Assembly: GCA_028713935.1 (NCBI GenBank) | Contig: JAQTNI010000001.1 | Span: forward strand, 1 to 32,000 | DNA from: Candidatus Iainarchaeum sp. | GTDB taxonomy: Archaea > Iainarchaeota > Iainarchaeia > Iainarchaeales > GCA-2688035 | DNA length: 32,000 nt | Reading direction: 5' to 3' | Shown here: positions 11,579 to 30,120 of the stretch, in pieces | Layout: each line of letters begins with the position of its first letter | Numbering within the stretch: the stretch's first letter is position 1 | Position numbers and translations under genes: made by a program | Notes under the pieces: model-generated | Seen by the model: the letters and a program-made list of their open reading frames with translations, nothing else | Told to the model about the DNA's origin: nothing | The model's database searches: none

Positions 11579-12217
11579 ATGCAGGGGCAAAGCATTGCAA
11601 AGATTGTTTGTTCTTTTGTGGGCGAACGGCCTTTTTTGCGGGAATGCATGAAAAAAGGCCTGATTAATTTTTCCCAGCTTGCAAGGCTGGTTATTTCCGA
11701 GAAAAAGCTTTCAAAGGCAGATTTTGACGCTGTTCTTGTTGCCTGCAGGCGTTGTTTTGAAAAGCTTTCTTTTGGAAAGGAATTCGAATCCAGGATAATT
11801 GCCTTGTTTAAAACAAGCAAGATAGAGGTTAAAACAAAAATTTGCGTTTTTGTTGTTTCAAAAAAAGCCCCTTTTTCAGTTATTTCAAAAATTGTCAGGG
11901 AAATTTCCGAAAAAGAAGAATTGTTTCACATTATCCAGGGCAGCTCCGCAGTTACAATAATTGCTTCCCAGGATTTTTTTGAATTGATAAAAAATTCTTT
12001 GGCCGGGTTTGTTGTTTCAGAAAAATCAGGGCTTGTTGAAATACTTGTCAAGACCTCAAAGGAAATCGAGCAAATCCCGGGTTCGGTTTCTTTCCTTTAT
12101 GGCAGGCTTTCAGAACAAGGAATCAACATTGTTGAAACAGCAAGCAGCTGGACAGACACTCTTTTTGTTATCTCGGAAAAAGACCTTGCAAAAACAATGG
12201 AACTCCTGGACTTTTAG
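11579..12217 (+). CDS. ACT-domain-containing protein (predicted)
   Basis: The C-terminal segment IPGSVSFLYGRLSEQGINIVETASSWTDTLFVISEKDL resembles an ACT fold. ATG 11579 is preferred over the upstream ORF start at 11498. Confidence 0.45.
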   Translation: MQGQSIAKIVCSFVGERPFLRECMKKGLINFSQLARLVISEKKLSKADFDAVLVACRRCFEKLSFGKEFESRIIALFKTSKIEVKTKICVFVVSKKAPFSVISKIVREISEKEELFHIIQGSSAVTIIASQDFFELIKNSLAGFVVSEKSGLVEILVKTSKEIEQIPGSVSFLYGRLSEQGINIVETASSWTDTLFVISEKDLAKTMELLDF

Positions 12218-12735
12218 GTCTGTTTTTTTATTTTTTTGAGGATAAAATCAGGAAGCATGCCTGAATCACTGTATGCCTTTTTTATTTTTTCAGGGAGTTT
12301 TGGAAATTCTTTTATTTTTCTCCTGCAATTTTTTGCCCCGCAATTGCACTGAAAGCCCCATATTTCCTGCCAGTTTATGCCCCAGATTGAATCATCAGTC
12401 CATTCCGTTAAAGAATAATCAAAAGTTATTTCCTCGCCTTTTTTTATGTTTTTAAAGGCAACTAATTTGTCAGATTTGACAATGCAGGAAGTAGGGGAGC
12501 AGGAATGATTTATGTAAATAAAAGGCACTTTTAGTTTCAGGTAAATTTTATCCGATATCTGCAATGGGTCATCAATCCTTGTTTTTCCTTCACTGTAATC
12601 TTTTTTCAGCATTGGTATTGACACTTGTTTTCCCCGCATAATGCAAACGGTTTCGCCTTTTTTTATATTGCACGAGGCGAAGCAACCTCTGCCTTCAATT
12701 TTTGAAACACGAATTTCAATTTTACTTTTTGCCAT
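12214..12735 (-). CDS. SET-domain protein (putative lysine methyltransferase)
   Basis: GRGCFA, INHSCSPT and GEEITFDY are present, with a post-SET Cys cluster CNCGAKNCR. Confidence 0.85.
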   Translation of the reverse strand: MAKSKIEIRVSKIEGRGCFASCNIKKGETVCIMRGKQVSIPMLKKDYSEGKTRIDDPLQISDKIYLKLKVPFIYINHSCSPTSCIVKSDKLVAFKNIKKGEEITFDYSLTEWTDDSIWGINWQEIWGFQCNCGAKNCRRKIKEFPKLPEKIKKAYSDSGMLPDFILKKIKKQT

Positions 12736-17753: not shown

Positions 17754-20132
17754 TTGGTGTTTTTTTTGCTTAAAAAAATGCTTTTTTTGCTCTGCCTTTT
17801 GCTTTTGTCTTCAAGTGCCTTTGCAGTGATATCACACGACTCTCTGAAGGTTTTTGCTGTCACTGAAGACGGGCAGACAGCAATGACTGCAAATCTTGGC
17901 CTTACAATTGAAGCCGGCACAGGAAAAGTCTGGAGCAGTGTTGAGCCTCTTATTGGAACTTCAACGCAGACAACTGAAAAGGCAGCTGTCCAGGTTGCAA
18001 AAAATTATTCTCCAAGCGTTTCTTCTTTTGACTACAAATTTGACATTAACAGCAATGCATCTCTTGTTGACGGCCCAAGCGCGGGCGCGGCAATGGCACT
18101 GCTTACCATTTCAATGCTGACTGACAAGCACATCCCTGAAAATGTCGGGATTACAGGAACAATAACAAATGAAGGGGGAGTGGGGCAGGTTGGCGGTGTT
18201 TTCAAAAAAGCACAGGAAGCAGCGCGCATTGGAATAAAACTTTTCATGATTCCTGCAGGGGAATCAAAGCAGATTATGACTGGGCAAAATGGCGCAGAAT
18301 ATGTCAATCTTGTCGATTATGCGCCTGCAAATTGGGGCATGAAAGTTGTTGAAGTAAGCAATATTGACCAGGTTTTAAAATTCGCATTTTCAGACATCCA
18401 AAGCATTGATGTGAATGCAAACCAGGAATTGCCTGTTTTTGTTCCAAAGCCAGTTTCTGTTTCGGACAATGTTTACAAAATGCATGATTTGACAGAGGGT
18501 TACATAAAAAGGGCTTCAGAAGCGCTTACCCATGCAAGAAAAAGTCTTACAGGGACGCTTTTGAATGATGCAGATGCCACCGAAGCAATGCTTGCAGCAT
18601 TGACAAACGCTGAAAAAAATTTGCAGGACGCAAAAATGCTTTTTGACCAGAACTATTTTTACAGCGCTGCAAACTATGCCTTTTTGGCGCAGGTTGACGC
18701 AATGTTTGTCGATGATTTAAGCCAAAACCCCTCTCTTATTGACCCTTCTTCAACTTTTTTGGATTTGAAGCTGCTTGACCTGAAAAAAGACGCGGGTTCA
18801 CTTGAAAAAGACCTGAATGATTTTGTCCAGATTGAAGGCTGGGAATGGCACATTGCTGCGCAACAGAGGCTTGCCTGGGCAGAACAAAAAATTGATTCCC
18901 TGATAAACAAAAAAACAATTGTAATAAACATTGACGGAACCACTGCAAGTTCCCTTGTGGAATTGCACGATTATGAGTTTGCAGTTGCCTGGCTTTCCGT
19001 TGCAAAAGATTTTTCCTCGCTGGCACAGGAATCAACAAAAAAAGTCCGCTCAAAGCCAATGTTCAATGAGGAAATAAACACTTACATAATCAATGCGGAA
19101 AACAATCTTTCCTCAATTCCGCAGGATTCTTCAGAGGACATAACAAGAAGGATTGAAACAGCCAAAAAATCAAGAGACCTTGGCAGAAGCGCTGCTTCTC
19201 TTTTTGATGCCGCCTCCGCCTTTGCACTGTCAAATGCGGATAATTTCATTAAAAACAAGGACCTGAACACACTGGAAACAGTGTTAAGGCAAAAATCCTC
19301 TGATTTGCAGAAAAAGCTTGACACGAAGGGCAATGGTTTTGTCTGGGCAAGGCTTTATCTTGACCATGCAAATTATTATCTGCAGGGAATTGAATTTTAC
19401 AAGTCAAAAGGCCTGAATGCGCAGGCGCTTGAAATGGCGCAAAGCGGAATTTCAATTGTTTTTCTCTCCGAAGAAATTTTCAATGCGTCTGAAACAGCGG
19501 GAAATTATTATTCCAATGTTCCCGCATCAGACCTTTCAGAAAACATCCGCCCTTTACTGCCGAATTACTTCAATCCCGCGGTTATTGCCGCGCTCATTGC
19601 AGTGATAATCTGCCTTGCCCTGCTGTTGTTTTTCATGCACAGGCAGGCTTCTGCTTCCAACTCGGAAGACAAAAAAATCAGCCTTGAAAAGGCAAAAGCA
19701 AGGCTTGACAGGCTGTTTGCAGACAAAAAAATTTCTTATGAAAAATTCCTTGAAATGAATTCAATACTTGAAAGCAGAAGCAAAGAAATTGATTTGGACA
19801 GGGAAGCATTAAGCCAGACAACTGTAAAGGCAGACAAAATGCGCTTTGAGCTCCAGGCGCTTAAAAGGACTCTTGCAGAGCTTGAAAGGCAGAAAAAATC
19901 AGGCCTGATAACAAAAAAAGACTTTGAAAAAACAGTTTCAAAAATCAATTCAAAATCAGGCTATCTTGAAAAAGCCCTTGTTGAAAGAAAAAAAGACGCA
20001 GCAGCAGAAGAAGCCAAGATAAAGCTTGAAACAAAAGAATATTCAAGCGAAGCAAAAGAAATGTTAAAATCAGGAAAAAAAGAAATCAACCGCAAATGGC
20101 AAAAAGCAAAAAAAACAAAATCCAAAAACTGA
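17754..20132 (+). CDS. secreted, membrane-anchored Lon-type (S16) serine protease with a long helical region and a cytoplasmic coiled-coil tail
   Basis: Signal-peptide-like N-terminus (LFLLCLLLLSSSAFA). Lon proteolytic domain with VDGPSAGAAMALLTIS...ITGTITNEGGVGQVGGVFKKAQEAARIGIKLFMIP. One TM helix (AVIAALIAVIICLALLLFFM, nt 19575-19637). The start codon is uncertain (TTG 17754, GTG 17757 or ATG 17778). Confidence 0.8.
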   Translation: MVFFLLKKMLFLLCLLLLSSSAFAVISHDSLKVFAVTEDGQTAMTANLGLTIEAGTGKVWSSVEPLIGTSTQTTEKAAVQVAKNYSPSVSSFDYKFDINSNASLVDGPSAGAAMALLTISMLTDKHIPENVGITGTITNEGGVGQVGGVFKKAQEAARIGIKLFMIPAGESKQIMTGQNGAEYVNLVDYAPANWGMKVVEVSNIDQVLKFAFSDIQSIDVNANQELPVFVPKPVSVSDNVYKMHDLTEGYIKRASEALTHARKSLTGTLLNDADATEAMLAALTNAEKNLQDAKMLFDQNYFYSAANYAFLAQVDAMFVDDLSQNPSLIDPSSTFLDLKLLDLKKDAGSLEKDLNDFVQIEGWEWHIAAQQRLAWAEQKIDSLINKKTIVINIDGTTASSLVELHDYEFAVAWLSVAKDFSSLAQESTKKVRSKPMFNEEINTYIINAENNLSSIPQDSSEDITRRIETAKKSRDLGRSAASLFDAASAFALSNADNFIKNKDLNTLETVLRQKSSDLQKKLDTKGNGFVWARLYLDHANYYLQGIEFYKSKGLNAQALEMAQSGISIVFLSEEIFNASETAGNYYSNVPASDLSENIRPLLPNYFNPAVIAALIAVIICLALLLFFMHRQASASNSEDKKISLEKAKARLDRLFADKKISYEKFLEMNSILESRSKEIDLDREALSQTTVKADKMRFELQALKRTLAELERQKKSGLITKKDFEKTVSKINSKSGYLEKALVERKKDAAAEEAKIKLETKEYSSEAKEMLKSGKKEINRKWQKAKKTKSKN

Positions 20133-20135
20133 TTC

Positions 20136-23129
20136 TTATTGCACTGCCTGTTCCGCATTCATGGAATCCATTTGTTCCCTTAATTTTAATCCCACTACGC
20201 TGCTTTTCTGCTTGTTTAAAGCAACACCAATTATCTGGCTTGCATTCTGTATCAAAGGGTCGTTATGGGTTACAACAATAAACTGGGATTTTTTGCTCAT
20301 TTCTTTTATCACATTCACCATTTTTGCTGAATTTTCCTTGTCAAGCGCCGCATCTGCCTCGTCAAAAATGTAAAAAGGAGAAGGCTCATAAAGCTGTATC
20401 GCAAAAAGGAACGCAAGCGCAGTAAGAGTTTTTTCCCCTCCGCTCATTGCATCAATATTTTTCATTGACGCGCCTTTGTGCTTTGACTCAATCACTAATC
20501 CCGATTCCAATGGGTTTTCAGGGCTGCTGAGTGACAATTGCCCGAAGCCCCCGAACAATTCCAAAAACATTTTTGAAAAATTCCTGTTCAATTCGTTAAA
20601 GCAGTTCATGAAAAAAGTTGTCCTTTTCACTTCAATTTTCTGCATCAAATCCATTATTGCAAGCTTTTCCTCGTCAAGCTTTGCAAGCTTCTGCCTTACA
20701 TCAATTACTTCCTGCTTCAATTCATTGAAAGAGTCAACTGCCTTCATGTTTATTGCGCCAAGCTCTGCAATCCTTTTTTCAATGTCAATTATGCGCTTCT
20801 GAAGCTGTTTTTCCTCCATATTGCTGATTTTTGGGACATTTGCATACTGTGCAAATTCCTCGCTTAAATCGGAAAGCCTGACTTCAAGCTTTGAATTGTC
20901 AATTTTTATTTCATTTGCCTGCTGCTCCAGCCTTTTGATTTTCTGCTGCAAAGAATTTTTTCTTTCAAAGGAAGCAGAAATTTTTTCGTCAATTCCGCTT
21001 TTTTCCTCAAAAAGCTTTTTGCTTTCCTTTTCTGATTTTTTCATTTCTTCCTGCAGGGAAACAATTGTGTTGCCAAGCAGCCTTATGCTTTCAGCTGTTT
21101 TTTCAATGGCAGCTGACATTTCACTGTTTGCTTTTTTCAGCTGGGAAATTTCCTCTTCAACAATTTTTTTTTCTTCGGAAGAGCGTTCCTTTCCCCTTTG
21201 AAACCCGCTTTTTTTTTGTTCAAGCAGCCCAAGCCTCAATTGAATGTCAGTAATGCTGTTTGCAAGGCTGGAAACTTTTTCAAAGCCAATTTCGGCCTTG
21301 AATTCCCTTGTTTCAATTTCTTTTTCCATTTTTTTTGCTTTTGCGGAAGAAAGAAGAGCCTCGAGTTTTTGTGCTTCCCTTTCCCTTTGTTCAAGTGAAT
21401 CAGCGCAAAGCTCTTTTGCAATCCTGTCTTTTTTTGCGCTTAAAGAAGAAAATTTCTGCTTCAGCTCTGCAAGATTTGCTGTTTCAAATTCCAATTCCCT
21501 CATTATTTCAAAAATGCCTTCAAGCCTTGCTTTTTTTGCATCAAGCTTTTTTGCCTGCTCAGCAAAAATCCCTGATTGCACATTCAGGCCGTTAAGCAAA
21601 TCCTGTTTTTTTTCAACAAGCATTTTCTTTTTTTCAATTGTCAGCCTGCTTTCGCAAACAGGGCAGGAAGCAGCCTGTTTCTGCAGTTCATTAATAGCGT
21701 TTTTTGCCTCGATTATCCTTGATTCGTTTGACTTTGAATCCACAATGCTTTTTTTTATTTCATTTGAAACAATTTTCAGCTCTTCCTTTATGTCAGGGTG
21801 TTCCTGCATTAACTTGTCAAGGCTGTGCTTTTTTTCATCTTTCCTCGTGAACTCGCTTTTTGCCTTTTCAAGCTCTGCGCTTGTTTCCTGCAAGGCAAGC
21901 TTTTCAAATGCAATTTCCCTCTGCAAAGCTGAAATCTCGGCTTTTTTTTCAAACAAAATTTTCTGGGCTTTTGACTCTTCTTCAGCAAGCAAAACAAGCG
22001 CCCTGTCCATTTCCTTCAGAGCGCTTTCTTTTCCCATGCCTTTTTCTTCAAGCTCTTTTTTTCTCTGCCTTAACACATCAAGCTGCCTTTTGAGTTCAGG
22101 CAGCTCTTTTTCAATTGCGGCAAGCTCTTTTTCCCTGTTGTTTTGCTCATTCAGAAAAGCCTTTATTTTTTCTTCCAGATAAAAAATCCTTGAATTGTTT
22201 TTTTCCAGCAAACGCTTCTTGTTCTCGCTGTCCTGCACAGCAAGCATTTTCTCGGCTTTTTTTTCCTCTGTTTTTATTCCAAAATTTGCAAAAGCCTCTT
22301 TGCTGCCGGCAAGAATAAGCCTGTTTATTTCTTCTGAGCGCTCCTGCCATTGCCTTATTTTTGCATCCTCTTCTGAAAACTTTGCCTGCCAGGAATTCTG
22401 TTCTTCGCCAACACTAAAAACCTTGTCAGTGTTTTCCTTTCTCAATGCAGTGATTTTTTCTATTTCAAGGTGCAATGCAGTTGCCTTTACCTGTTTTTTT
22501 TCATCCTGCAATTGCCCAAATTCCATTGCTGCCTGCCTGTCCCTTTCAAGGCTTTGCAGATAATTTTCCCTTTCAGCCATTACTATTGCGGCTTCTTTTA
22601 TGCGCATTTCAACCTTTTCAAGGTTTTTCAATGCCTCTGCTTTTTTTTCGTCAAACTCATGCAGGCCGGCAAGCTCATCGATTATCCGGCGCCTTTCTTC
22701 AGGAGTCATTTCAATCAGCCTTGTTGCATCTCCCTGCACAACAATATTATGCCCGCTTGGCCGGATTCCCAATTCTCCAAGAAGAGAGCTAATCTCATTC
22801 AAAGTTTTTCTCTGGTCATTAAGCCTGCAAATGCTTTTGCCCTGCTTGTCAATCATCCTGCTAATGTCATATTTCTGGTCATTGTGTTTTATTGTCAAAT
22901 CGACTTTTGCATAATTTTCCATTGCGCCATTATTGACAAGCTCTGACAATTTCGCCGCTCTTAATGTTTTAAGCGAAGTAGCTCCCATTACAAACATCAA
23001 TGCATCCAGAATGTTTGTTTTTCCGCAGCCATTGCCGCCCACAATTGCAGTGAAACCATCCGAAAAAGGGATTTCAGCTTTCTTAAAGCTCTTGAAATTC
23101 TTTAAAACAAGTTTTTGGAGTTTAACCAT
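20136..23129 (-). CDS. SMC-family ATPase lacking a hinge, with a CPVC hook motif at the coiled-coil midpoint
   Basis: LKNFKSF...GGNGCGKTN, QGDATRLIEMTPEERRRIIDELAG, MSGGEKTLTALAFLFAIQ, PFYIFDEADAALD and QFIVVTHN are present. About 700 residues of coiled-coil-like sequence lie between the head halves. CPVC is encoded at nt 21654-21665. ATG 23129 (MVKLQK) is preferred over ATG 23141. Confidence 0.85.
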   Translation of the reverse strand: MVKLQKLVLKNFKSFKKAEIPFSDGFTAIVGGNGCGKTNILDALMFVMGATSLKTLRAAKLSELVNNGAMENYAKVDLTIKHNDQKYDISRMIDKQGKSICRLNDQRKTLNEISSLLGELGIRPSGHNIVVQGDATRLIEMTPEERRRIIDELAGLHEFDEKKAEALKNLEKVEMRIKEAAIVMAERENYLQSLERDRQAAMEFGQLQDEKKQVKATALHLEIEKITALRKENTDKVFSVGEEQNSWQAKFSEEDAKIRQWQERSEEINRLILAGSKEAFANFGIKTEEKKAEKMLAVQDSENKKRLLEKNNSRIFYLEEKIKAFLNEQNNREKELAAIEKELPELKRQLDVLRQRKKELEEKGMGKESALKEMDRALVLLAEEESKAQKILFEKKAEISALQREIAFEKLALQETSAELEKAKSEFTRKDEKKHSLDKLMQEHPDIKEELKIVSNEIKKSIVDSKSNESRIIEAKNAINELQKQAASCPVCESRLTIEKKKMLVEKKQDLLNGLNVQSGIFAEQAKKLDAKKARLEGIFEIMRELEFETANLAELKQKFSSLSAKKDRIAKELCADSLEQREREAQKLEALLSSAKAKKMEKEIETREFKAEIGFEKVSSLANSITDIQLRLGLLEQKKSGFQRGKERSSEEKKIVEEEISQLKKANSEMSAAIEKTAESIRLLGNTIVSLQEEMKKSEKESKKLFEEKSGIDEKISASFERKNSLQQKIKRLEQQANEIKIDNSKLEVRLSDLSEEFAQYANVPKISNMEEKQLQKRIIDIEKRIAELGAINMKAVDSFNELKQEVIDVRQKLAKLDEEKLAIMDLMQKIEVKRTTFFMNCFNELNRNFSKMFLELFGGFGQLSLSSPENPLESGLVIESKHKGASMKNIDAMSGGEKTLTALAFLFAIQLYEPSPFYIFDEADAALDKENSAKMVNVIKEMSKKSQFIVVTHNDPLIQNASQIIGVALNKQKSSVVGLKLREQMDSMNAEQAVQ

Positions 23130-23255
23130 AAAAAAATTCACTTTGTAAGAGGCATTAAGGCAATTCTGCCAATAGGTTTCTTAACTGAAAATCTTTTTAA
23201 ATGGATTTTTAAGTTCTGGGGACTTGTTTATTTGGCCTTAAATAAACCTTCCCAA

Positions 23256-23984
23256 TCAGAGAGGCCGTTTTTTTGGTTTATTTTGCTTATTTTTTGCTCT
23301 TTGTTCCGCTTTAAATTTTCTGTAAAATTCTCTATCTTTTTGAGGATATGGTTTTACATTATGCGAATCAATTGTTGTAATGCCTGCTTTCCTAAATGTT
23401 TGAAGATATTGCCGAACCTGCCGCTTGTATTCCCCCGGAGATGAACACGCTCCAAAAAGGAAGAAAAGGGACGGCAAAACGCCAACAGGTTTTGCTTTTT
23501 TTCTTTCAGCGATTCTTTTTAATCTCTTTGCAACCCAAACCCTCCAATTCTCTCCGACCTGTTCAGAAAATAGTTTAAGCTCATTTTGTCTCTTGCGCTC
23601 TCCCTGAATGTGGTTAATATGCAATTCCAGTTTTCCTCCTTGGCTCTGAAGAAAAAAACCAATAGTCGCTATTCTGTGTTGATTATTATCCTGAATGCCT
23701 AATTGAATAGGACATTCCACATGAATTAAGTTTTTTGACAACTTAATTTGAAAAGAACCTACTTTCAGTGGTTTTTGAGCAGCCAAATTTTGAAACAAAT
23801 CACTAGTCAAAAGAGCGCTCGCCAAAGCATCCTGGGATGAAAGAGTTTCTGGGAGCTGCTTCAAAGTCTGTTCACAAACAAAAAAAGAATCAACTGGAAT
23901 TTTTTTTGCCTCTAATTGAGCCAAAACCTCAGTTTGTTCATAGAAGAAATATAAGTTGTGTTCAGATATAAAAATCAATAGCAC
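23256..23984 (-). CDS. hypothetical protein (242 aa) with a basic C-terminal tail
   Basis: Long ORF on the same strand as the SMC-like gene and directly upstream of it. No motif recognised. It ends in a Lys/Arg-rich tail (RKFKAEQRAKNKQNKPKKRPL). Confidence 0.55.
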   Translation of the reverse strand: MLLIFISEHNLYFFYEQTEVLAQLEAKKIPVDSFFVCEQTLKQLPETLSSQDALASALLTSDLFQNLAAQKPLKVGSFQIKLSKNLIHVECPIQLGIQDNNQHRIATIGFFLQSQGGKLELHINHIQGERKRQNELKLFSEQVGENWRVWVAKRLKRIAERKKAKPVGVLPSLFFLFGACSSPGEYKRQVRQYLQTFRKAGITTIDSHNVKPYPQKDREFYRKFKAEQRAKNKQNKPKKRPL

Positions 23985-24041: not shown

Positions 24042-24830
24042 TTATTCCCTGTCAAGGTAATAAAAGGCAAGCGCAAAATTCACAAAAGCAATTTGTATTG
24101 CCCAGAAAACAGCAATAATTATTCCCACTGCTATTTCATCAACAACCAAATCCGACAAAACAGAGCCAATAAAACCGATTATCCCGCTAATTATTAAAAC
24201 AATTATCAGGAATAAAACAGTTGTCCAGAATTTTTTGTCGGAAAATTCCCATGACTTTCCAATTGCAGCCTTTAATTTTTCTCCCCCGCAAGCCATTGCG
24301 GGAATTGTAAAAGCCAGTTTTACAAGAACAAAAACAATTGCTATTGCAAGCAAAAACACCAAAACAAGTGCCCAGATTCCTGCAGAGGGCATTATCAAAA
24401 ACAATATCCAAAAAATTACCATGATAAGCGCAGCCAGCACTATTTCAAATAGGATTAATGAAAGAATCCGGCCTCCCTGTTCAATTGTCTGTGAAACAGC
24501 ACTGCCAATTGAAGGCTTTTTTTCAGACAGCTCTTTTGCATAATTTGAATAAAAAAAGCCTGTCACAGTAACCACTATTAAGGAAACAAGGCCTGCGAGC
24601 AGCAATGGAACAAGGCTTCCAGCATACAAATTAAAAAACTGGAATGGCAATTCGCCTAAGCCCGATTCAGGAATATTCCCCAAAAAAACAGCGTTTATTG
24701 CCAATTCAACAAAAAAATCAATTACCGCAAAAAAAACAACTGCAATGACAGCAGCCGCAGCAAGCCCAGGAACAAGGCAAACAGGGTGCTTTGCAATTTC
24801 CTTAAACCCTTTTGCAAAAACTCCAAGCAA
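24042..24830 (-). CDS. integral membrane protein (about 6 TM helices), function unknown
   Basis: Repeated 20-25-residue hydrophobic stretches (for example VIAVVFFAVIDFFVELAI and ALIMVIFWILFLIMP). It is on the same strand as the two downstream genes. Confidence 0.65.
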   Translation of the reverse strand: MLGVFAKGFKEIAKHPVCLVPGLAAAAVIAVVFFAVIDFFVELAINAVFLGNIPESGLGELPFQFFNLYAGSLVPLLLAGLVSLIVVTVTGFFYSNYAKELSEKKPSIGSAVSQTIEQGGRILSLILFEIVLAALIMVIFWILFLIMPSAGIWALVLVFLLAIAIVFVLVKLAFTIPAMACGGEKLKAAIGKSWEFSDKKFWTTVLFLIIVLIISGIIGFIGSVLSDLVVDEIAVGIIIAVFWAIQIAFVNFALAFYYLDRE

Positions 24831-26727: not shown

Positions 26728-29700
26728 GTGTTTGTTTTGGCTGACAAAAAAGGTTCTTCGGAAGCTGGAGAAGAGATTTTTTCAGATGTTTTTGGCGTTG
26801 ACGAGGATGAAAAGCGCGCCAGGGAAAGGCTTGCCAAGGAAACAGCTGAAAAAGAAGCAAAGCAAAAAGCCTCAAAAGGCGAGAAAGAGGAAAAAGAATT
26901 GCCTTCTGAAAAAGAAGAGCCTGAAATTGTTGCCTTGAAGAAAACCCAAAAAAAGCCTGCCCAAAAAATTCCAGTTGAGGCCAAAGCCACTGTTACTGAT
27001 TCTCCCGAGCAAAAGGAATTGAAGCAGAAAATCAAAAAGGTTATTCTGGCAAAGGCAGCAAAGGCCGCTGAAAAGGATTCTGCAAAAATTTTTGACAAGG
27101 AAATTGACATCAAGGAAAAAGGAGTTAAGGAAAAAGAAAAAGAAGAAGAGCCAGAGCCTGAAGAAGAAAACGAAAAAGAAGATTCAAAAGAAATTGTGCC
27201 AAAATTTGCCCTTAATTTTTTGCAGGATTCAGAAGGAAGCGTTTTCATTGGCAGGAAAACAAGTGTTTTCCAGGAATATGGCAATGAAGCAGGCCTGTAT
27301 ATTGGGAATATTGCAGAGCCTTCCTTTGAAGGAAAAAAAGTTTTATTGGATGGTTTAAATCCGCATGTTGTTTTTGTCTGCGGGGCAAGAGGCAGCGGAA
27401 AATGCCTTACTGGAGACACTCTAATTGCGCTTGAAGATGGTACAGTAAAGCCGATAAGAGAACTGGAACATGATAATCAAAAAGTTCTTTCAATGGATTC
27501 TGAAATGAAAATTGTTGCCACTCAAAAAAGCGGTTTTTTTAAAAGGAGAGTAAATAAGATTCTGGAAGTTAACTTAAAAAGTGGCAAAAAGATTAGGTTG
27601 ACCCCTGAGCATCCTTTGTTTACAATGCAAGGCTGGAAGCCTGCGCAGGAGTTGAGAGAAGGAAGCAGAATTGCTGCTGTTAATAAACAGGTTGGGCTTG
27701 GTTTTTCAAGTAGCAGGCAGGAAAGCGTTTGTTATTCTGCCGCAAGGGCAAAATTAATGCAAATTAATTTGCTTAACAAGGATGAGTTGGTGCAAAATGC
27801 TTCTTCAAATATTTTTTGGGACGAAATAACTGAAAAAACAGAATTATCAGGAGAATTTGAAGTTTTTGATATCAGTGTTCCAACACACCACAATTTTGTT
27901 GCAAATGATATTATTGTCCACAACAGTTATCTGCTTGGAGTGCTTGCTGAAGAGCTTGCCTTGAAGAATCCCAATGTCGGCCTTATTGTAATCGACCCTG
28001 TAGGGGTTTTTTGGGGAATGAGGCATCCTAACAAGGAAGAAAAAGAGCTTGAGGCTCTTGCAAAAACAGGCCTTCTTCCGAACGGCCTGAATAATCTCAA
28101 AGTTTTTATTCCAAAGGGAATGAAGGACAAGGTTCCGAAAAACACTTTTGATGCGGCTTTCAGCATGCCTGCTTCTCTTCTAACTGCAGAAGACTGGTGC
28201 CTAACTTTTGGCATTGACAGGTTTTCCCCAAGCGGCCTGCTCCTTGAAAAAGTTTTGCACAAGACAAAGCACGGCTATAAGACAAAAGAAGGAAAATATG
28301 TAAAATCAGAGGATGTTTTTGATTTGGAGGACATTATTGAATGCCTGCATAATGACAATGAAATAAATTCAGCCGAGCTTGGCTATAAGGCCGATTCAAT
28401 AAGGGCCCTTGCTTCCAGGTTTGATGCCGCAAAAGCCTGGGGAGTTTTTGATGAAAGAGGAACTCCTTTGATTGAAATTTCAAAGGAAAACCAGTTGACA
28501 ATTATTGACACTTCTTTTTTGGATGACAATGTTTCCGCGCTAATAATCGGGATTCTTGCAAGAAGAATTCTTGCCGCGAGAAAATTAAGCACTCGCAGGG
28601 AAGCTGCTTCAAAATTCAAGGATGATTCTGTTGAAAACCTAATGGAATTGGGAATCCCTCCCACATGGCTGTTTATTGATGAGGCACACACTTTGATTCC
28701 AAGCGGAAACATGAAAACTCCTGCAAGCAGTGCCCTTGTTGAATATGTGAAGCAGGGAAGGCAGCCTGGCTGCAGCCTTGTTTTTGCAACACAGCAGCCG
28801 AGCGCAATTGACACCCATGTTTTAAGCCAGCTTGACATTATTGTGGCGCACAAGCTTGTTTTTGACGATGACATAAAGGCAGTTTACAAGAGAACTCCAA
28901 CTATTATTCCAAAGCAATACAAGAACAGCAATTTTATCAAAACACTGCCAGTTGGAATGGGAATTGTTGGAGATAGAAGAGAAGAAACCTCGCGCGCTTT
29001 TGTAATGAAAATCAGGCCAAGAATGTCACAGCACGAAGGCAGGGAAGCAGTTACTTCTGAAAGGTCTTCACAGGTTTTTGACAAATCCAAGGTTCTTGCC
29101 CTTGCAATTGGAATGGCTTATGCCCAGATTGAAAGAAAGCCGACAGAAGCCTCTTACATTAGCCAGATTGTCCAGACTCTTAATACAAAATACAAGTCAA
29201 CTTTGCAGCTTTCAGATGTTCTTGATGCGCTTGAAAAAAAAGGCGTCGGAATCAATCCCAAAACTTCTGTTTTAAGCATTCCGGACGAGGAAGCAGAGCA
29301 TGAAGTAGTGGAAGAAGAAGTCCGTGAAACAGAAGAAGAAGTGCAAAAAGAAGTGAAATCAGTTTCACCAGAAGAAAGCATTTCACTAATGGCTTTTCCA
29401 GCCAATCTTCAGGAAGAATCAGCAAGAAGGCTTTTTGACAGGCTGAGAAAGAAAAAAACTCTCGGCTTGTTTGGAAAAGAAGAGCTGATTGAAAAAATTT
29501 CCTTGAAATATTTGCCAATTTTCCATGTTACTTTCAATGTTTTCAATGAAAAAGGCTCTTTCAATATTGCAGAGGCCTATGTTGATTCCCATTCAGGGGA
29601 ATTTTTGAATTTTGATTTTGAACAAAAACAATTTGTTGAATCCCACGGCTTAAGCCTGCTTTCGGAAATGGGCACTTTGGAATCAAGAATCCTGCTTTTG

Positions 29701-30120
29701 CTTTCCGAAAAAAAATCCTCTTTTGAAGACCTTCAAAACAGGCTTGGAGAAGAAGAAAAAAGCATTGAAAAGGCAATTGATTCGCTTATGGAAGCAAATG
29801 CAATTGCGCTTGAACAGTCAAAAGAAAAAGACTGGTTTTTTTTGAAAACAAAAATTGATTTGCCAAAAAGCCCCTTGCATTCCCTGCTTACAAGCGTGAA
29901 AAAACTGCCAGTGGAAGAAATTTCCGCTTCCAATCTTGAAAAGCCGCAGTTTGACAAAACAAAATTCCAGGAGGTTTTTTCAAAAATCTGGGGAAAAGTC
30001 CAGATAAAAAGCATTTCAGAAGTTTTTTTGCCAAGATATGAGGCAATTATCAGGAAACAGGACAATTCAATAAGGGCAATTTCAGTTGACGCCTACTCAG
30101 GAAAAGAAATTGCGGACTAA
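26728..30120 (+). CDS. HerA/DUF87-type P-loop ATPase (FtsK-HerA superfamily) with an intein, a disordered N-terminal region and a long C-terminal extension
   Basis: After intein removal the Walker A reads VFVCGARGSGK|SYLLGVLAEEL. Walker B is WLFIDEAHTLIP, and VFATQQPSAIDTHVLSQLDIIVAHKL is present. Residues 25-160 are Lys/Glu-rich low complexity. Residues 775-1130 match no family I recognise. Confidence 0.8.
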   Translation: MFVLADKKGSSEAGEEIFSDVFGVDEDEKRARERLAKETAEKEAKQKASKGEKEEKELPSEKEEPEIVALKKTQKKPAQKIPVEAKATVTDSPEQKELKQKIKKVILAKAAKAAEKDSAKIFDKEIDIKEKGVKEKEKEEEPEPEEENEKEDSKEIVPKFALNFLQDSEGSVFIGRKTSVFQEYGNEAGLYIGNIAEPSFEGKKVLLDGLNPHVVFVCGARGSGKCLTGDTLIALEDGTVKPIRELEHDNQKVLSMDSEMKIVATQKSGFFKRRVNKILEVNLKSGKKIRLTPEHPLFTMQGWKPAQELREGSRIAAVNKQVGLGFSSSRQESVCYSAARAKLMQINLLNKDELVQNASSNIFWDEITEKTELSGEFEVFDISVPTHHNFVANDIIVHNSYLLGVLAEELALKNPNVGLIVIDPVGVFWGMRHPNKEEKELEALAKTGLLPNGLNNLKVFIPKGMKDKVPKNTFDAAFSMPASLLTAEDWCLTFGIDRFSPSGLLLEKVLHKTKHGYKTKEGKYVKSEDVFDLEDIIECLHNDNEINSAELGYKADSIRALASRFDAAKAWGVFDERGTPLIEISKENQLTIIDTSFLDDNVSALIIGILARRILAARKLSTRREAASKFKDDSVENLMELGIPPTWLFIDEAHTLIPSGNMKTPASSALVEYVKQGRQPGCSLVFATQQPSAIDTHVLSQLDIIVAHKLVFDDDIKAVYKRTPTIIPKQYKNSNFIKTLPVGMGIVGDRREETSRAFVMKIRPRMSQHEGREAVTSERSSQVFDKSKVLALAIGMAYAQIERKPTEASYISQIVQTLNTKYKSTLQLSDVLDALEKKGVGINPKTSVLSIPDEEAEHEVVEEEVRETEEEVQKEVKSVSPEESISLMAFPANLQEESARRLFDRLRKKKTLGLFGKEELIEKISLKYLPIFHVTFNVFNEKGSFNIAEAYVDSHSGEFLNFDFEQKQFVESHGLSLLSEMGTLESRILLLLSEKKSSFEDLQNRLGEEEKSIEKAIDSLMEANAIALEQSKEKDWFFLKTKIDLPKSPLHSLLTSVKKLPVEEISASNLEKPQFDKTKFQEVFSKIWGKVQIKSISEVFLPRYEAIIRKQDNSIRAISVDAYSGKEIAD
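27403..27924 (+). mobile_element. mini-intein (174 aa) inserted in the Walker A loop
   Basis: Begins CLTGDTLIAL (block A). Block B is RLTPEHPLFT. Block F is FEVFDISVPTHHNFVA. Ends DIIVHN, followed by a +1 Ser (block G). There is no room for a LAGLIDADG or HNH endonuclease domain. Excision restores GSGKS. Confidence 0.88.

What the first reader, a model, noticed from the sequence alone, without database searches (positions are those of the whole stretch)
20136..23141. SMC-type ATPase heads joined by a hinge-less coiled coil with a Rad50-style CPVC hook at its midpoint
The head motifs are SMC-type rather than Rad50-type. They include FKSF...GGNGCGKTN, QGDATRLIEMTPEERRRIIDELAG, MSGGEKTLTALAFLFAIQ, PFYIFDEADAALD and QFIVVTHN. 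Between the two head halves I see only heptad-like K/E/L/Q-rich sequence and no glycine-rich globular hinge. Residues 493-496 of 1001 (nt 21654-21665) read CPVC, within QAASCPVCESRLTIEKKK. This closely resembles the Rad50 zinc hook (CPVCGRELT...). The motif sits almost exactly at the midpoint, where a coiled-coil apex would be. No scpA, scpB or mre11 is present in the window. A protein with SMC heads and a Rad50-type apex would be an unusual architecture for chromosome organisation or defence.
Basis: partly seen in the sequence, partly recalled or inferred. Interest (0 to 1): 0.72.

Follow-up and report, generated by a model that had tools for sequence, protein, structure and literature searches.

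The report
Natural Smc with Rad50-type zinc hook
This archaeal chromosome-folding protein (Smc) has lost its usual globular "hinge" and instead carries the short zinc-binding hook normally found in the DNA-repair protein Rad50, so nature has made the hinge-to-hook swap that was previously only engineered in the laboratory.

Summary
The ORF at 20136-23141 (-) encodes a 1001-aa protein (probably 997 aa, starting at the ATG at 23129). Its ATPase head is SMC-type, it has two long helical arms and no SMC hinge, and CPVC sits at aa 493-496, at the tip of the helical hairpin.

It is not an artefact. More than 100 relatives from independent assemblies, almost all Candidatus Iainarchaeota (DPANN archaea), share the architecture. 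C-P-x-C are the only invariant residues in about 550 aa of coiled coil. Arm lengths are held to within ±2 aa.

The apex profile matches solved Rad50 zinc hooks (1L8D, E = 1.4e-12; hhalign probability 97.6%).

In a head-domain tree the hook clade forms a single clade (100% bootstrap) next to hinge-bearing DPANN Smcs. The gene occupies the same chromosomal position as the hinge-bearing smc of close relatives. The extra residues of the canonical proteins all map to window aa 461-503.

My reading is that this is the lineage's own Smc, with the hinge swapped for a Rad50-type hook, and that it dimerises through one Zn2+ held by four cysteines.

I could not test zinc binding, or whether a ScpA partner, a second smc or rad50-mre11 lies elsewhere in the genome. 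I found no paper describing this family. I rate it a new variant of a known kind, of moderately high interest.

The parts
20136..23141 (-). smc gene for the hinge-less, zinc-hook Smc. The ORF is 1001 aa from GTG 23141; the probable true start is ATG 23129, giving 997 aa. The stop is at 20136-20138.
   Evidence: P0001 (997 aa, NCBI 'AAA family ATPase', Candidatus Iainarchaeum sp.) is 100% identical.
22647..23141 (-). N-terminal half of the SMC ATPase head (aa 1-165). It holds Walker A GGNGCGKT (aa 35-42, nt 23016-23039), the invariant R61 (identified as the arginine finger from memory of SMC heads, not tested here) and the Q-loop Q136.
   Evidence: Invariant columns in A1. Beta-rich fold with pLDDT 83-93. 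Matches to Smc heads in the PDB.
21681..22661 (-). N-terminal arm helix (aa 161-487). It has breaks at aa 199-211 (joint region) and 365-372 (elbow-like).
   Evidence: AF2 secondary structure. R191 to C493 is 300-303 aa in 70 of 73 relatives and 297 aa in the other three.
21585..21710 (-). Rad50-type zinc hook region (aa 478-519).
   Evidence: Pfam Rad50_zn_hook hit. PDB 1L8D at 1.4e-12 with the family profile. hhalign probability 97.6%. AF2 hairpin at pLDDT 94, with 1L8D as the top Foldseek hit.
21654..21665 (-). CPVC motif (C493, P494, V495, C496), inferred to supply two of the four zinc ligands in a dimer.
   Evidence: C, P and C are invariant in 73 of 73 sequences.
20553..21638 (-). C-terminal arm helix (aa 502-863). 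It has breaks at aa 615-619 (elbow-like) and at 765-776 and 795-804 (joint region).
   Evidence: C496 to D758 is 261-264 aa in 69 of 73 relatives and 256-259 aa in the other four.
20139..20552 (-). C-terminal half of the head (aa 864-1001). It holds the signature motif MSGGEK (aa 899-904, nt 20430-20447), Walker B FYIFDE (aa 923-928, nt 20358-20375) and the H-loop H959.
24042..24830 (-). Polytopic membrane protein (GPDPase_memb/DUF7847-like). It is the conserved same-strand upstream neighbour of this smc across the clade and may share an operon with it. Its functional link to smc is unknown.
   Evidence: Homologues were found in 56 locus ORFs. They lie directly upstream of smc, with gaps of 5-133 bp, in the loci where the position was read.
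17754..20132 (+). Lon_C-like membrane protease, convergent with smc and separated from it by 3 bp. It is a synteny anchor, not a functional part.
   Evidence: The orthologue lies in the same convergent position downstream of the hinge-bearing smc of L069/L070 (30% identity over 590 aa, E = 1e-60).

Best explanation
This is the chromosomal Smc (prokaryotic condensin ATPase) of a Candidatus Iainarchaeota archaeon. The central hinge domain and its adjoining coiled coil, roughly 170 aa, have been replaced by a Rad50-type zinc hook of about 40 aa. The SMC head, the joint and the full-length arms are kept.

Shown here:
- The SMC-type head has every catalytic motif intact.
- Two helical arms of about 330-360 aa each (about 50 nm, inferred) run collinear with those of canonical Smc.
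- A helix-hairpin-helix apex presents the invariant CPxC.
- The family forms a single clade, and the gene sits where hinge-bearing relatives keep smc.

Inferred:
- Two protomers each contribute C493 and C496 to bind one Zn2+ tetrahedrally, as in Rad50. This gives a constitutive homodimer whose arms can zip into a rod.
- ATP-driven head engagement and a kleisin (ScpA, encoded elsewhere) close the ring.
- The complex folds and segregates the roughly 1-Mb chromosome as Smc-ScpA(B) does.

The swap probably arose once, by capture of a Rad50 hook segment, near the base of a large Iainarchaeota clade. Arm shortening and even loss of the hook followed in nested sublineages.
For: Head identity:
- SMC_prok_A scores 545.7 bits in two stretches, against 139 for the best Rad50 model and 98 for ASRP.
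- The best solved relatives are Pyrococcus Smc heads, 8e-94 to 2e-78.
- Foldseek hits are condensin Smc4, P. yayanosii Smc head plus joint, and 4i99 at TMt 0.85-0.87.
- All ATPase motifs are invariant.

Hinge absence:
- There is no PF06470 hit, and seven Smcs from related lineages (those identified are DPANN) give positive-control hits.
- A hinge-bearing relative aligns to TIGR02169 in one stretch at 817 bits. Hook proteins align in two stretches that skip model positions of about 474-673.
- The extra residues of canonical Smcs all map to window aa 461-503.

Hook identity:
- The apex alone hits only Rad50 hooks in the PDB.
- The family profile gives 1L8D at 1.4e-12, 6ZFF at 3.3e-12 and human RAD50 at 0.005, with noise starting at 0.02.
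- hhalign gives probability 97.6%, E = 3.7e-12.
- 33 of 39 members individually hit Pfam Rad50_zn_hook.
- In an exhaustive search of 1.84 billion proteins, every one of the 10 non-family hits I checked has Rad50-type heads.
- The AF2 apex model (pLDDT 94) has 1L8D as its top Foldseek hit.

Selection:
- C, P and C are the only invariant residues in the coiled coil, and arm lengths are conserved to ±2 aa.

Orthology:
- Neighbour-joining tree of the heads: hook clade 100% bootstrap; grouped with hinge-bearing L067/69/70/71 at 96%.
- The same smc/Lon-like/L12-L10-L1-L11-NusG-FtsZ block is seen in hook, hook-less and hinge-bearing relatives.
- No genome appears twice among the 80 best loci.

Functional plausibility:
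- An engineered B. subtilis Smc carrying the P. furiosus Rad50 hook supported normal growth on rich medium (PMC5344682).
- The reverse swap works in fission yeast Rad50 (PMC6969161).
Against: - Zinc binding and hook-mediated dimerisation are inferred, not shown.
- No ScpA, ScpB or other kleisin was found in the 32-kb window or within 6-10 kb of smc in any of the roughly 65 Iainarchaeota loci. By contrast, the Aenigmatarchaeota loci have scpA directly downstream or within about 700 bp of smc. A kleisin partner is therefore assumed.
- The rest of the genome could not be searched, so a second, canonical smc cannot be strictly excluded.
- A nested subclade has lost the cysteines and about 40 apex residues, yet keeps conserved heads. 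Apex zinc bridging is therefore not indispensable in every member.
- Homology of so short a module to Rad50, as opposed to convergence, cannot be proven.
- The tree is neighbour-joining on 442 columns, not maximum likelihood.
Confidence: 0.75

Rival explanations
1. It is a divergent Rad50/SbcC-type double-strand-break repair ATPase that works with an Mre11 nuclease, and its head merely resembles Smc.
For: It has a Rad50-type zinc hook at the apex. It has weak Rad50 family hits (139 bits). A HerA-like ATPase lies 3.5 kb away.
Against: The Rad50 models score 139 bits or less against cut-offs of 700-1087, while SMC_prok_A scores 545.7. Rad50-headed proteins with similar hooks show the opposite pattern: Rad50 at 180-911 bits, and SMC at 58-95 bits or absent from the hits above E = 1e-15. 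PDB and Foldseek both favour Smc. No Metallophos/Mre11 gene is in the window or in the four relatives' neighbourhoods with precomputed Pfam annotation. The gene is positionally orthologous to a hinge-bearing smc.
Confidence: 0.04
2. It belongs to the archaea-specific SMC-related proteins (ASRP: ClsN/coalescin, Sph1/2). These also combine an SMC-like head with a zinc hook, and act in chromosome compartmentalisation rather than as condensin.
For: ASRPs are reported to carry a zinc-hook motif in place of a hinge (PMC9389158). NF045487 ASRP gives a partial hit of 98 bits.
Against: The ASRP score is far below its cut-off of 300 and far below the SMC score. A canonical hinge-bearing Smc scores even higher on ASRP (136 bits), so the hit reflects shared superfamily features. 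The heads group with canonical DPANN Smc, and the arms are collinear with them. The protein is about 1000 aa, while the ASRP model is 593 positions.
Confidence: 0.04
3. It is the ATPase of an SMC-like anti-phage or anti-plasmid defence system (Lamassu LmuB, Wadjet JetC, MADS mad3, Septu PtuA).
For: PADLOC gives mad3 at 179.6 bits and LmuB at 81 bits.
Against: These scores are well below the Smc score and reflect the shared head. No partner genes are present, and the neighbours give no PADLOC hits. The gene lies in a housekeeping block that stays syntenic at 36-45% protein identity. No genome appears twice among the 80 best loci.
Confidence: 0.02
4. It is the lineage's Smc, but the CPxC apex is not an intermolecular zinc bridge. 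It could be only a structural turn, a redox-sensitive disulphide or a metal sensor. Dimerisation would then rely on arm-arm and head-kleisin contacts.
For: A nested subclade of 927-933 aa has lost the cysteines and has no conserved apex motif, yet keeps conserved heads and synteny. The AF2 models are monomers, so they say nothing about dimerisation.
Against: Absolute invariance of C, P and C, together with the Rad50-like flanking pattern (L at -7, L at +4, KK..LL), matches the Rad50 hook over about 70-100 residues, not just the four-residue motif. There is no second CxxC in the protein that could complete an intramolecular four-Cys site. Two cysteines per chain is exactly the Rad50 arrangement.
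Confidence: 0.12
5. Assembly or annotation artefact: a chimeric contig joins smc and rad50 fragments, or the gene is a pseudogene.
For: None found.
Against: It is a single uninterrupted ORF. An identical protein occurs on an independent Logan assembly. The same architecture occurs in more than 100 independent assemblies, including complete genomes. Purifying selection is strong.
Confidence: 0.01

Closest known systems
[quoted passage not shown] 2017, PMC5344682)
   Same: The design is the same: SMC head and arms joined to a Rad50 CPVC hook as the dimerisation module. The chimera supported normal growth on rich medium and showed the same discrete arm-length optima as wild type. Here the arm lengths are likewise tightly fixed. 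Two natural short-arm variants have symmetric deletions of about 100 aa in each arm.
   Different: This one is natural and ancient, and it is fixed across a large clade. The hook has diverged (about 27% identity to the P. furiosus hook region). Its function has not been tested.
Canonical archaeal/bacterial Smc (TIGR02169; Smc-ScpAB condensin)
   Same: The head, ATPase motifs, joint-like and elbow-like breaks, arm length and chromosomal position are shared.
   Different: There is no PF06470 hinge, so any hinge-specific DNA binding or gating is absent. The protein misses the equivalog cut-off (545 against 729 bits), so PGAP names it 'AAA family ATPase'. No scpA is linked to it.
Rad50/SbcC zinc hook (PF04423; PDB 1L8D, 6ZFF, 5GOX)
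   Same: A CPxC sits at the tip of an antiparallel coiled-coil hairpin with similar flanking residues. The profile match is at E = 1e-12. The nearest non-family hooks I checked all belong to Rad50-headed archaeal proteins.
   Different: The hook is attached to Smc heads and Smc-length arms. No Mre11 was found in the annotated neighbourhoods.
ASRP family (ClsN/coalescin, Sph1/Sph2; PMC9389158)
   Same: These are archaeal SMC-superfamily proteins with a zinc hook instead of a hinge.
   Different: It is a separate family. Here ASRP scores 98 bits against a cut-off of 300, and the heads are orthologous to canonical Smc.
'Hinge-less' SMC cluster of marine Actinobacteria (Sussfeld et al. 2025, PMC12153180)
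   Same: SMC-type heads and arms with no hinge domain.
   Different: That cluster is bacterial and explicitly lacks the CXXC motif. It resembles the hook-less Iainarchaeota subclade noted here more than it resembles this protein.

Membership tests
Prokaryotic Smc (condensin ATPase; TIGR02169/TIGR02168) | SMC-type ABC ATPase head with Walker A, Q-loop, signature motif, Walker B, D-loop and H-loop | tested here: met
   SMC_N at 4e-48. SMC_prok_A is the best family at 545.7 bits. Pyrococcus Smc heads at 8e-94. Foldseek TMt 0.81-0.87 to Smc heads. Motif residues are invariant.
Prokaryotic Smc (condensin ATPase; TIGR02169/TIGR02168) | Long antiparallel intramolecular coiled-coil arms (about 50 nm) with a head-proximal joint | tested here: met
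   AF2 gives helices at 161-487 and 502-863, with paired breaks at 199-211/765-804 and 365-372/615-619. The arms are collinear with hinge-bearing Smcs apart from aa 461-503. The model matches the 5xei head plus joint.
Prokaryotic Smc (condensin ATPase; TIGR02169/TIGR02168) | Globular hinge dimerisation domain (PF06470) | tested here: not met
   No hit at E <= 1. Seven positive controls gave E = 1e-28 to 1e-35. TIGR02169 model positions of about 474-673 are unmatched.
Prokaryotic Smc (condensin ATPase; TIGR02169/TIGR02168) | Score above the curated equivalog cut-off | tested here: not met
   545.7 against 729.4 (TIGR02169) and 433.4 against 567.35 (TIGR02168). The shortfall matches the missing hinge: hinge-bearing L069 scores 816.9.
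Prokaryotic Smc (condensin ATPase; TIGR02169/TIGR02168) | Orthology to canonical smc (phylogeny and gene position) | tested here: met
   In the neighbour-joining head tree the hook clade has 100% support and joins hinge-bearing L067/69/70/71 at 96%. L069/L070 have the same convergent Lon-like neighbour.
Prokaryotic Smc (condensin ATPase; TIGR02169/TIGR02168) | Kleisin partner ScpA (with or without ScpB) bridging the heads | not testable with these tools
   None was found in the window or within 6-10 kb in about 65 related loci. The rest of the genomes could not be read.
Rad50/SbcC | CxxC zinc hook at the coiled-coil apex (PF04423) | tested here: met
   This protein alone scores 18.3-22.3 bits, below the cut-off of 24.3. 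33 of 39 family members hit at E < 0.01. The profile against 1L8D gives 1.4e-12. hhalign gives 97.6%. Zinc binding itself was not tested.
Rad50/SbcC | Rad50-type ATPase head (NCBIfam Rad50 equivalogs) | tested here: not met
   The best Rad50 model scores 139 bits against a cut-off of 700. True Rad50-headed hook proteins score 180-911 bits on Rad50 models, and on SMC models 58-95 bits or not listed above E = 1e-15.
Rad50/SbcC | Mre11/SbcD nuclease partner, usually adjacent | tested here: not met
   No Metallophos/Mre11 hit in the window ORFs or in the annotated neighbourhoods of four relatives. The rest of the genome was not testable.
ASRP (ClsN/Sph; NF045487) | Score above the family cut-off and the short ASRP architecture | tested here: not met
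   98.1 bits against a cut-off of 300. A canonical Smc scores higher on this model (136 bits).
SMC-like defence ATPases (Lamassu LmuB, Wadjet JetC, MADS mad3) | Best match to a defence model, plus cognate partner genes nearby | tested here: not met
   mad3 at 179.6 bits and LmuB at 81 bits, both below the Smc score of 545.7. The neighbours have no PADLOC hits apart from generic HerA matches 3.5 kb away. The context is housekeeping synteny.

The most novel reading that the evidence does not exclude
Across a large clade of Iainarchaeota, a hinge-less, hook-dimerised Smc is the only Smc. If so, SMC-type chromosome folding (loop extrusion) runs in nature with no hinge at all. In one nested subclade it would run with no dedicated apex dimeriser of any kind. 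Because the hook is of the Rad50 type, it might also allow zinc-bridged contacts between Smc complexes, or mixed Smc-Rad50 hooks. That would couple chromosome folding to break tethering in these tiny genomes.
Probability: 0.15. Interest if true: 0.85.

Novelty: new variant of a known kind. Interest (0 to 1): 0.66.

Why it matters
[quoted passage not shown] Several mechanistic models give it DNA-binding or gate functions. Laboratory chimeras, however, showed that a Rad50 hook can replace the hinge in B. subtilis (PMC5344682), and that a MukB hinge can replace the hook in Rad50 (PMC6969161).

A whole archaeal lineage that made this swap naturally and has kept it under strong selection gives three things:
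- Evolutionary proof that the fold of the dimerisation module is interchangeable.
- A ready-made minimal Smc for biochemical and single-molecule tests of whether loop extrusion needs a hinge.
- A natural series for probing the arm-length rules: full-length arms, arms shortened symmetrically by about 100 aa, and a hook-less form.

There is also a practical consequence. These proteins fail the Smc equivalog threshold and are annotated 'AAA family ATPase'. Automated surveys may therefore wrongly score Iainarchaeota as lacking Smc.

Tried and rejected
- **The 242-aa ORF directly upstream (23256-23984) as the kleisin.** I rejected this. It has no Pfam or PADLOC hit. hhalign against a ScpA profile gives probability 0.1%. 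It has no homologue in any other locus, including that of a relative with 84% Smc identity.
- **Searching for ScpA/ScpB near smc.** I built a profile from Aenigmatarchaeota ScpA found next to their smc. It hit only Aenigmatarchaeota loci and nothing in the window or the Iainarchaeota loci. This says nothing about the rest of the genomes.
- **Literature route to ScpA/Rad50/Mre11 content of Diapherotrites.** I checked the Undinarchaeota/DPANN paper and its supplements, the Forterrea genome paper and the Cavalier-Smith review. None held usable data.
- **Literature search for a prior description of a natural hook-bearing Smc.** Four searches found none. This library lacks most subscription-journal papers, so the absence is not proof.
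- **Foldseek on the hook-only model.** The top hit is the Rad50 hook, but the E-values are weak (5e-3) because helical hairpins are generic, and prefoldin and Vipp1 score similarly. I treat the sequence profiles as the real evidence.
- **Tracing the donor of the hook.** The nearest non-family hooks belong to Rad50-headed proteins of 750-800 aa from unidentified archaea. I could not assign them to Iainarchaeota, so the donor remains open.
- **Searches left unused.** I ran no further search on ScpA.

Full report
**1. The observation**

The window holds one uninterrupted ORF on the minus strand, 20136-23141, of 1001 aa from a GTG. The family alignment and the identical NCBI protein P0001 (997 aa) place the likely start at M5, the ATG at 23129. 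CPVC is at aa 493-496, nt 21654-21665, and is the only CxxC among the protein's six cysteines.

Pfam gives SMC_N spanning aa 8-979 (4e-48) and no SMC_hinge. It gives a sub-threshold Rad50_zn_hook hit at aa 478-519.

**2. Organism and genomic setting**

The window is archaeal chromosomal DNA. It carries FtsZ, NusG/Spt5, ribosomal proteins L11, L1, L10 and L12, argG and argH, sugar-nucleotide genes, a Lon_C-like membrane protease, the smc, a polytopic membrane protein, a phosphoribosyltransferase, a HerA-like ATPase with an intein, ThiF and CofD.

The closest database proteins are labelled Candidatus Iainarchaeum or Diapherotrites, which are DPANN archaea of the phylum Candidatus Iainarchaeota.

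The neighbourhood is retained in relatives whose Smc is only 36-45% identical: membrane protein, then smc, then a convergent Lon-like protease, then L12-L10-L1-L11-NusG and FtsZ, with the HerA-like gene a few kb away. This marks a vertically inherited housekeeping gene, not a mobile or defence locus. PADLOC matches (mad3 at 180 bits, LmuB at 81 bits) are weaker than the Smc match and have no partner genes.

**3. The head is SMC, not Rad50**

- NCBIfam ranks SMC_prok_A first at 545.7 bits. The best Rad50 model scores 139, ASRP 98 and arcadin-4 34.5.
- The best solved relatives are Pyrococcus Smc heads (8e-94 to 2e-78); Rad50 heads score about 4e-17.
- An AlphaFold2 model built on 73 family sequences (mean pLDDT 78) is matched by Foldseek to condensin Smc4, the P. 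yayanosii Smc head with coiled coil and joint, and the Smc head-ScpA complexes (TMt 0.81-0.87).
- The Walker A, Q-loop, signature, Walker B, D-loop and H-loop residues are invariant across the family, so the ATPase is expected to be active.

**4. The hinge is truly absent and the arms are intact**

The Pfam hinge model finds nothing here. It does find hinges at E = 1e-28 to 1e-35 in seven Smcs from related lineages, among them Micrarchaeota, Altiarchaeales and Aenigmatarchaeota.

A hinge-bearing relative (L069) aligns to TIGR02169 in one stretch at 817 bits. The hook proteins align in two stretches that skip model positions of about 474-673, and so fall below the 729-bit cut-off. That explains the 'AAA family ATPase' annotation.

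In a joint alignment, all residues that canonical Smcs have in excess of this protein fall between window aa 461 and 503; for L069 these blocks are 19 + 36 + 65 + 8 = 128 aa. The arms are otherwise collinear.

AF2 predicts helices at 161-487 and 502-863. They are joined by a short hairpin (488-501) that carries CPVC, with no globular apex. Paired helix breaks lie at the positions expected for an SMC joint (199-211 with 765-804) and at an elbow-like site (365-372 with 615-619).

**5. The apex is a Rad50-type zinc hook under strong selection**

Across 73 relatives (34-67% identical to the window protein), the only invariant residues between about aa 192 and 757 are C493, P494 and C496; L486 is 96% conserved. 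The distances R191 to C493 (300-303 aa in 70 of 73) and C496 to D758 (261-264 aa in 69 of 73) are nearly fixed.

- The apex segment alone hits only the P. furiosus Rad50 hook structures in the PDB.
- A profile of 39 apex segments gives 1L8D at 1.4e-12, 6ZFF at 3.3e-12 and human RAD50 (5GOX) at 0.005. The next hit, a keratin, is at 0.02.
- hhalign against the P. furiosus hook gives probability 97.6%, E = 3.7e-12 over 70 columns.
- 33 of 39 members individually hit Pfam Rad50_zn_hook, with a best E-value of 3e-7.
- The apex-only AF2 model (pLDDT 94) has the Rad50 hook as its top Foldseek match. Hairpin folds are generic, however, and the E-values are weak.
- An exhaustive profile search of 1.84 billion representative proteins found the family first. 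All 10 non-family hits I checked (750-1320 aa) score higher on Rad50 head models than on SMC models. That is the opposite head pattern to this protein.

With two cysteines per chain and no second CxxC, the logical reading is the Rad50 arrangement: one Zn2+ bound by four cysteines from two chains. This is inferred, not shown.

**6. Evolution**

A scan of one genome per species returned about 55 hook-bearing Smcs, nearly all from Iainarchaeota-labelled MAGs, along with hinge-bearing Smcs of other DPANN lineages.

In a neighbour-joining tree of the head domains (442 columns, 200 bootstraps):
- The hook-bearing proteins form one clade (100%).
- That clade groups with hinge-bearing L067, L069, L070 and L071 (96%).
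- The 927-933-aa proteins with neither hinge nor hook are nested inside it (98%).

The hinge-bearing L069/L070 have the same convergent Lon-like protease immediately downstream (30% identity over 590 aa, E = 1e-60). The hook gene therefore sits where the canonical smc sits. No genome contributes two loci among the 80 best.

The simplest history is a single hinge-to-hook replacement in the resident smc, followed in sublineages by two kinds of change. Some lost about 100 aa symmetrically from both arms (L055, L061). Others lost the hook together with about 40 apex residues. The hook-less group shows no conserved apex motif.

**7. How it most likely works**

Shown: an intact SMC ATPase head, full-length antiparallel arms with a joint, and a Rad50-like CPxC hairpin at the apex, all under purifying selection in a conserved chromosomal position.

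Inferred: zinc-mediated constitutive homodimerisation at the apex; ATP-dependent head engagement; ring closure by a kleisin encoded elsewhere; and a condensin-like role in folding and segregating a roughly 1-Mb chromosome.

Experiment makes this plausible. B. subtilis Smc carrying the P. furiosus Rad50 hook supports normal growth and obeys the same arm-length periodicity as wild type (PMC5344682). A MukB hinge can replace the hook of fission yeast Rad50 (PMC6969161).

**8. What could not be settled**

No ScpA, ScpB or Mre11 is in the window. The ScpA and ScpB searches also found nothing within 6-10 kb of smc in any Iainarchaeota locus, and the four neighbourhoods with precomputed Pfam annotation show no Mre11. 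The Aenigmatarchaeota loci, by contrast, have scpA directly downstream or within about 700 bp of smc. The orphan 242-aa ORF upstream is not a kleisin.

The tools gave no access to the remainder of these genomes. The presence of ScpA, of a second smc and of rad50-mre11 therefore remains open. The existence of hook-less orthologues shows that the zinc bridge is not indispensable everywhere.

**9. Comparison with what is known, and novelty**

Known relatives of the idea are:
- Rad50/SbcC hooks.
- The ASRP family (ClsN, Sph), which pairs a zinc hook with an SMC-like head but is a distinct family (ASRP scores 98 bits against a cut-off of 300 here).
- A hinge-less actinobacterial SMC cluster that explicitly lacks CXXC.
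- The laboratory chimeras.

Four full-text searches found no description of a natural, orthologous Smc bearing a Rad50-type hook. The library is incomplete, so this is not proof of absence.

**10. Verdict**

I classify this as a new variant of a known kind: a true Smc orthologue that fails one defining Smc feature (the hinge) and meets one defining Rad50 feature (the hook). Interest is moderately high at 0.66. It is a natural test case for whether SMC motors need a hinge, and it exposes an annotation blind spot.

Noticed in passing
window 26728-30120 (+): A HerA-like ATPase of 1130 aa (DUF87 plus HerA_C) carries an intein (Intein_splicing/Hint, aa 223-399). Homologues lie a few kb from smc in about 20 related loci; those with annotation (1049-1120 aa) show DUF87 and no intein domain. 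No Mre11, Rad50 or NurA is next to it, and it is far longer than a typical HerA.
   Followed up: partly
window 23256-23984 (-): A 242-aa ORF lies between the conserved membrane-protein gene and smc. It has no family hit and no homologue in any of the 86 related loci, including the closest relative (84% Smc identity). It looks like a lineage-specific orphan or insertion, and it is not ScpA (hhalign probability 0.1%).
   Followed up: yes
window 24042-24830 (-); L002 9179-9958, L003 9084-9995, L004 8998-9867: A polytopic membrane protein (GPDPase_memb/DUF7847-like) has homologues in 56 locus ORFs. In the loci where I read the position it lies on the same strand directly upstream of the hook smc, with gaps of 5-133 bp. 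This suggests an operon. No functional link to Smc is known.
   Followed up: partly
L044 5983-8766, L050, L052, L054, L066; P0099, P0102, P0103, P0105, P0115: A subclade nested inside the hook clade (98% bootstrap) has neither hinge nor hook. The proteins are 919-933 aa with 1-3 Cys in total. Window aa of about 461-475 and 491-530 are deleted, and no apex motif is conserved. One member, P0102, is shown to occupy the same syntenic position. How these Smcs dimerise is unexplained.
   Followed up: partly
L055 5980-8382; L061 4949-7321: Two hook-bearing Smcs are only 800 and 790 aa. [quoted passage not shown] This is reminiscent of the discrete functional arm lengths found experimentally for B. 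subtilis Smc.
   Followed up: partly
P0117, P0120 (archaeon GW2011_AR10), L035 1987-6633, L047 2461-6990, L042 3190-6810: Several relatives' smc ORFs are far longer than usual (1206-1560 aa). P0117 and P0120 carry LAGLIDADG homing-endonuclease and intein-splicing domains. Where a CPxC is present (P0117, P0120, L035, L042) it sits at the expected place once the insert is discounted. L035, L042 and L047 are assumed from length alone to carry inserts, and no CxxC was found in the L047 ORF.
   Followed up: no
L072, L073, L080-L085: Aenigmatarchaeota-type Smcs are only 812-837 aa. The two I scanned (L072, L081) have a normal hinge, so their arms are short. scpA lies downstream of smc, directly or within about 700 bp, in seven of the eight loci (not L072), and scpB is also present in five.
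   Followed up: partly
L010 (labelled Chloroflexota bacterium), L040 (labelled Candidatus Falkowbacteria): Two short contigs assigned to bacterial MAGs carry Iainarchaeota-type hook smc genes that nest within the archaeal clade. This is probably binning contamination.
   Followed up: no
P0134, P0137-P0139, P0143 and similar; L087 7216-10346, L088 1-2995: The hooks most similar to this family outside it belong to a large group of Rad50-headed archaeal proteins of only 750-800 aa. In the two loci examined, an unannotated gene of about 242 aa lies directly upstream where Mre11 would be expected. Their taxon is unknown, and they could be related to the donor of the hook.
   Followed up: partly
window 17754-20132 (+): A Lon_C-like protease of 792 aa has a signal/membrane segment and a long K/E-rich C-terminal tail. 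It ends 3 bp from the smc stop codon, in convergent orientation. This tight convergent pairing is conserved in hook, hook-less and hinge-bearing relatives.
   Followed up: partly
window 12214-12735 (-): A small SET-domain protein (173 aa; Pfam SET at 7e-12) lies in this DPANN genome, next to sugar-nucleotide genes.
   Followed up: no
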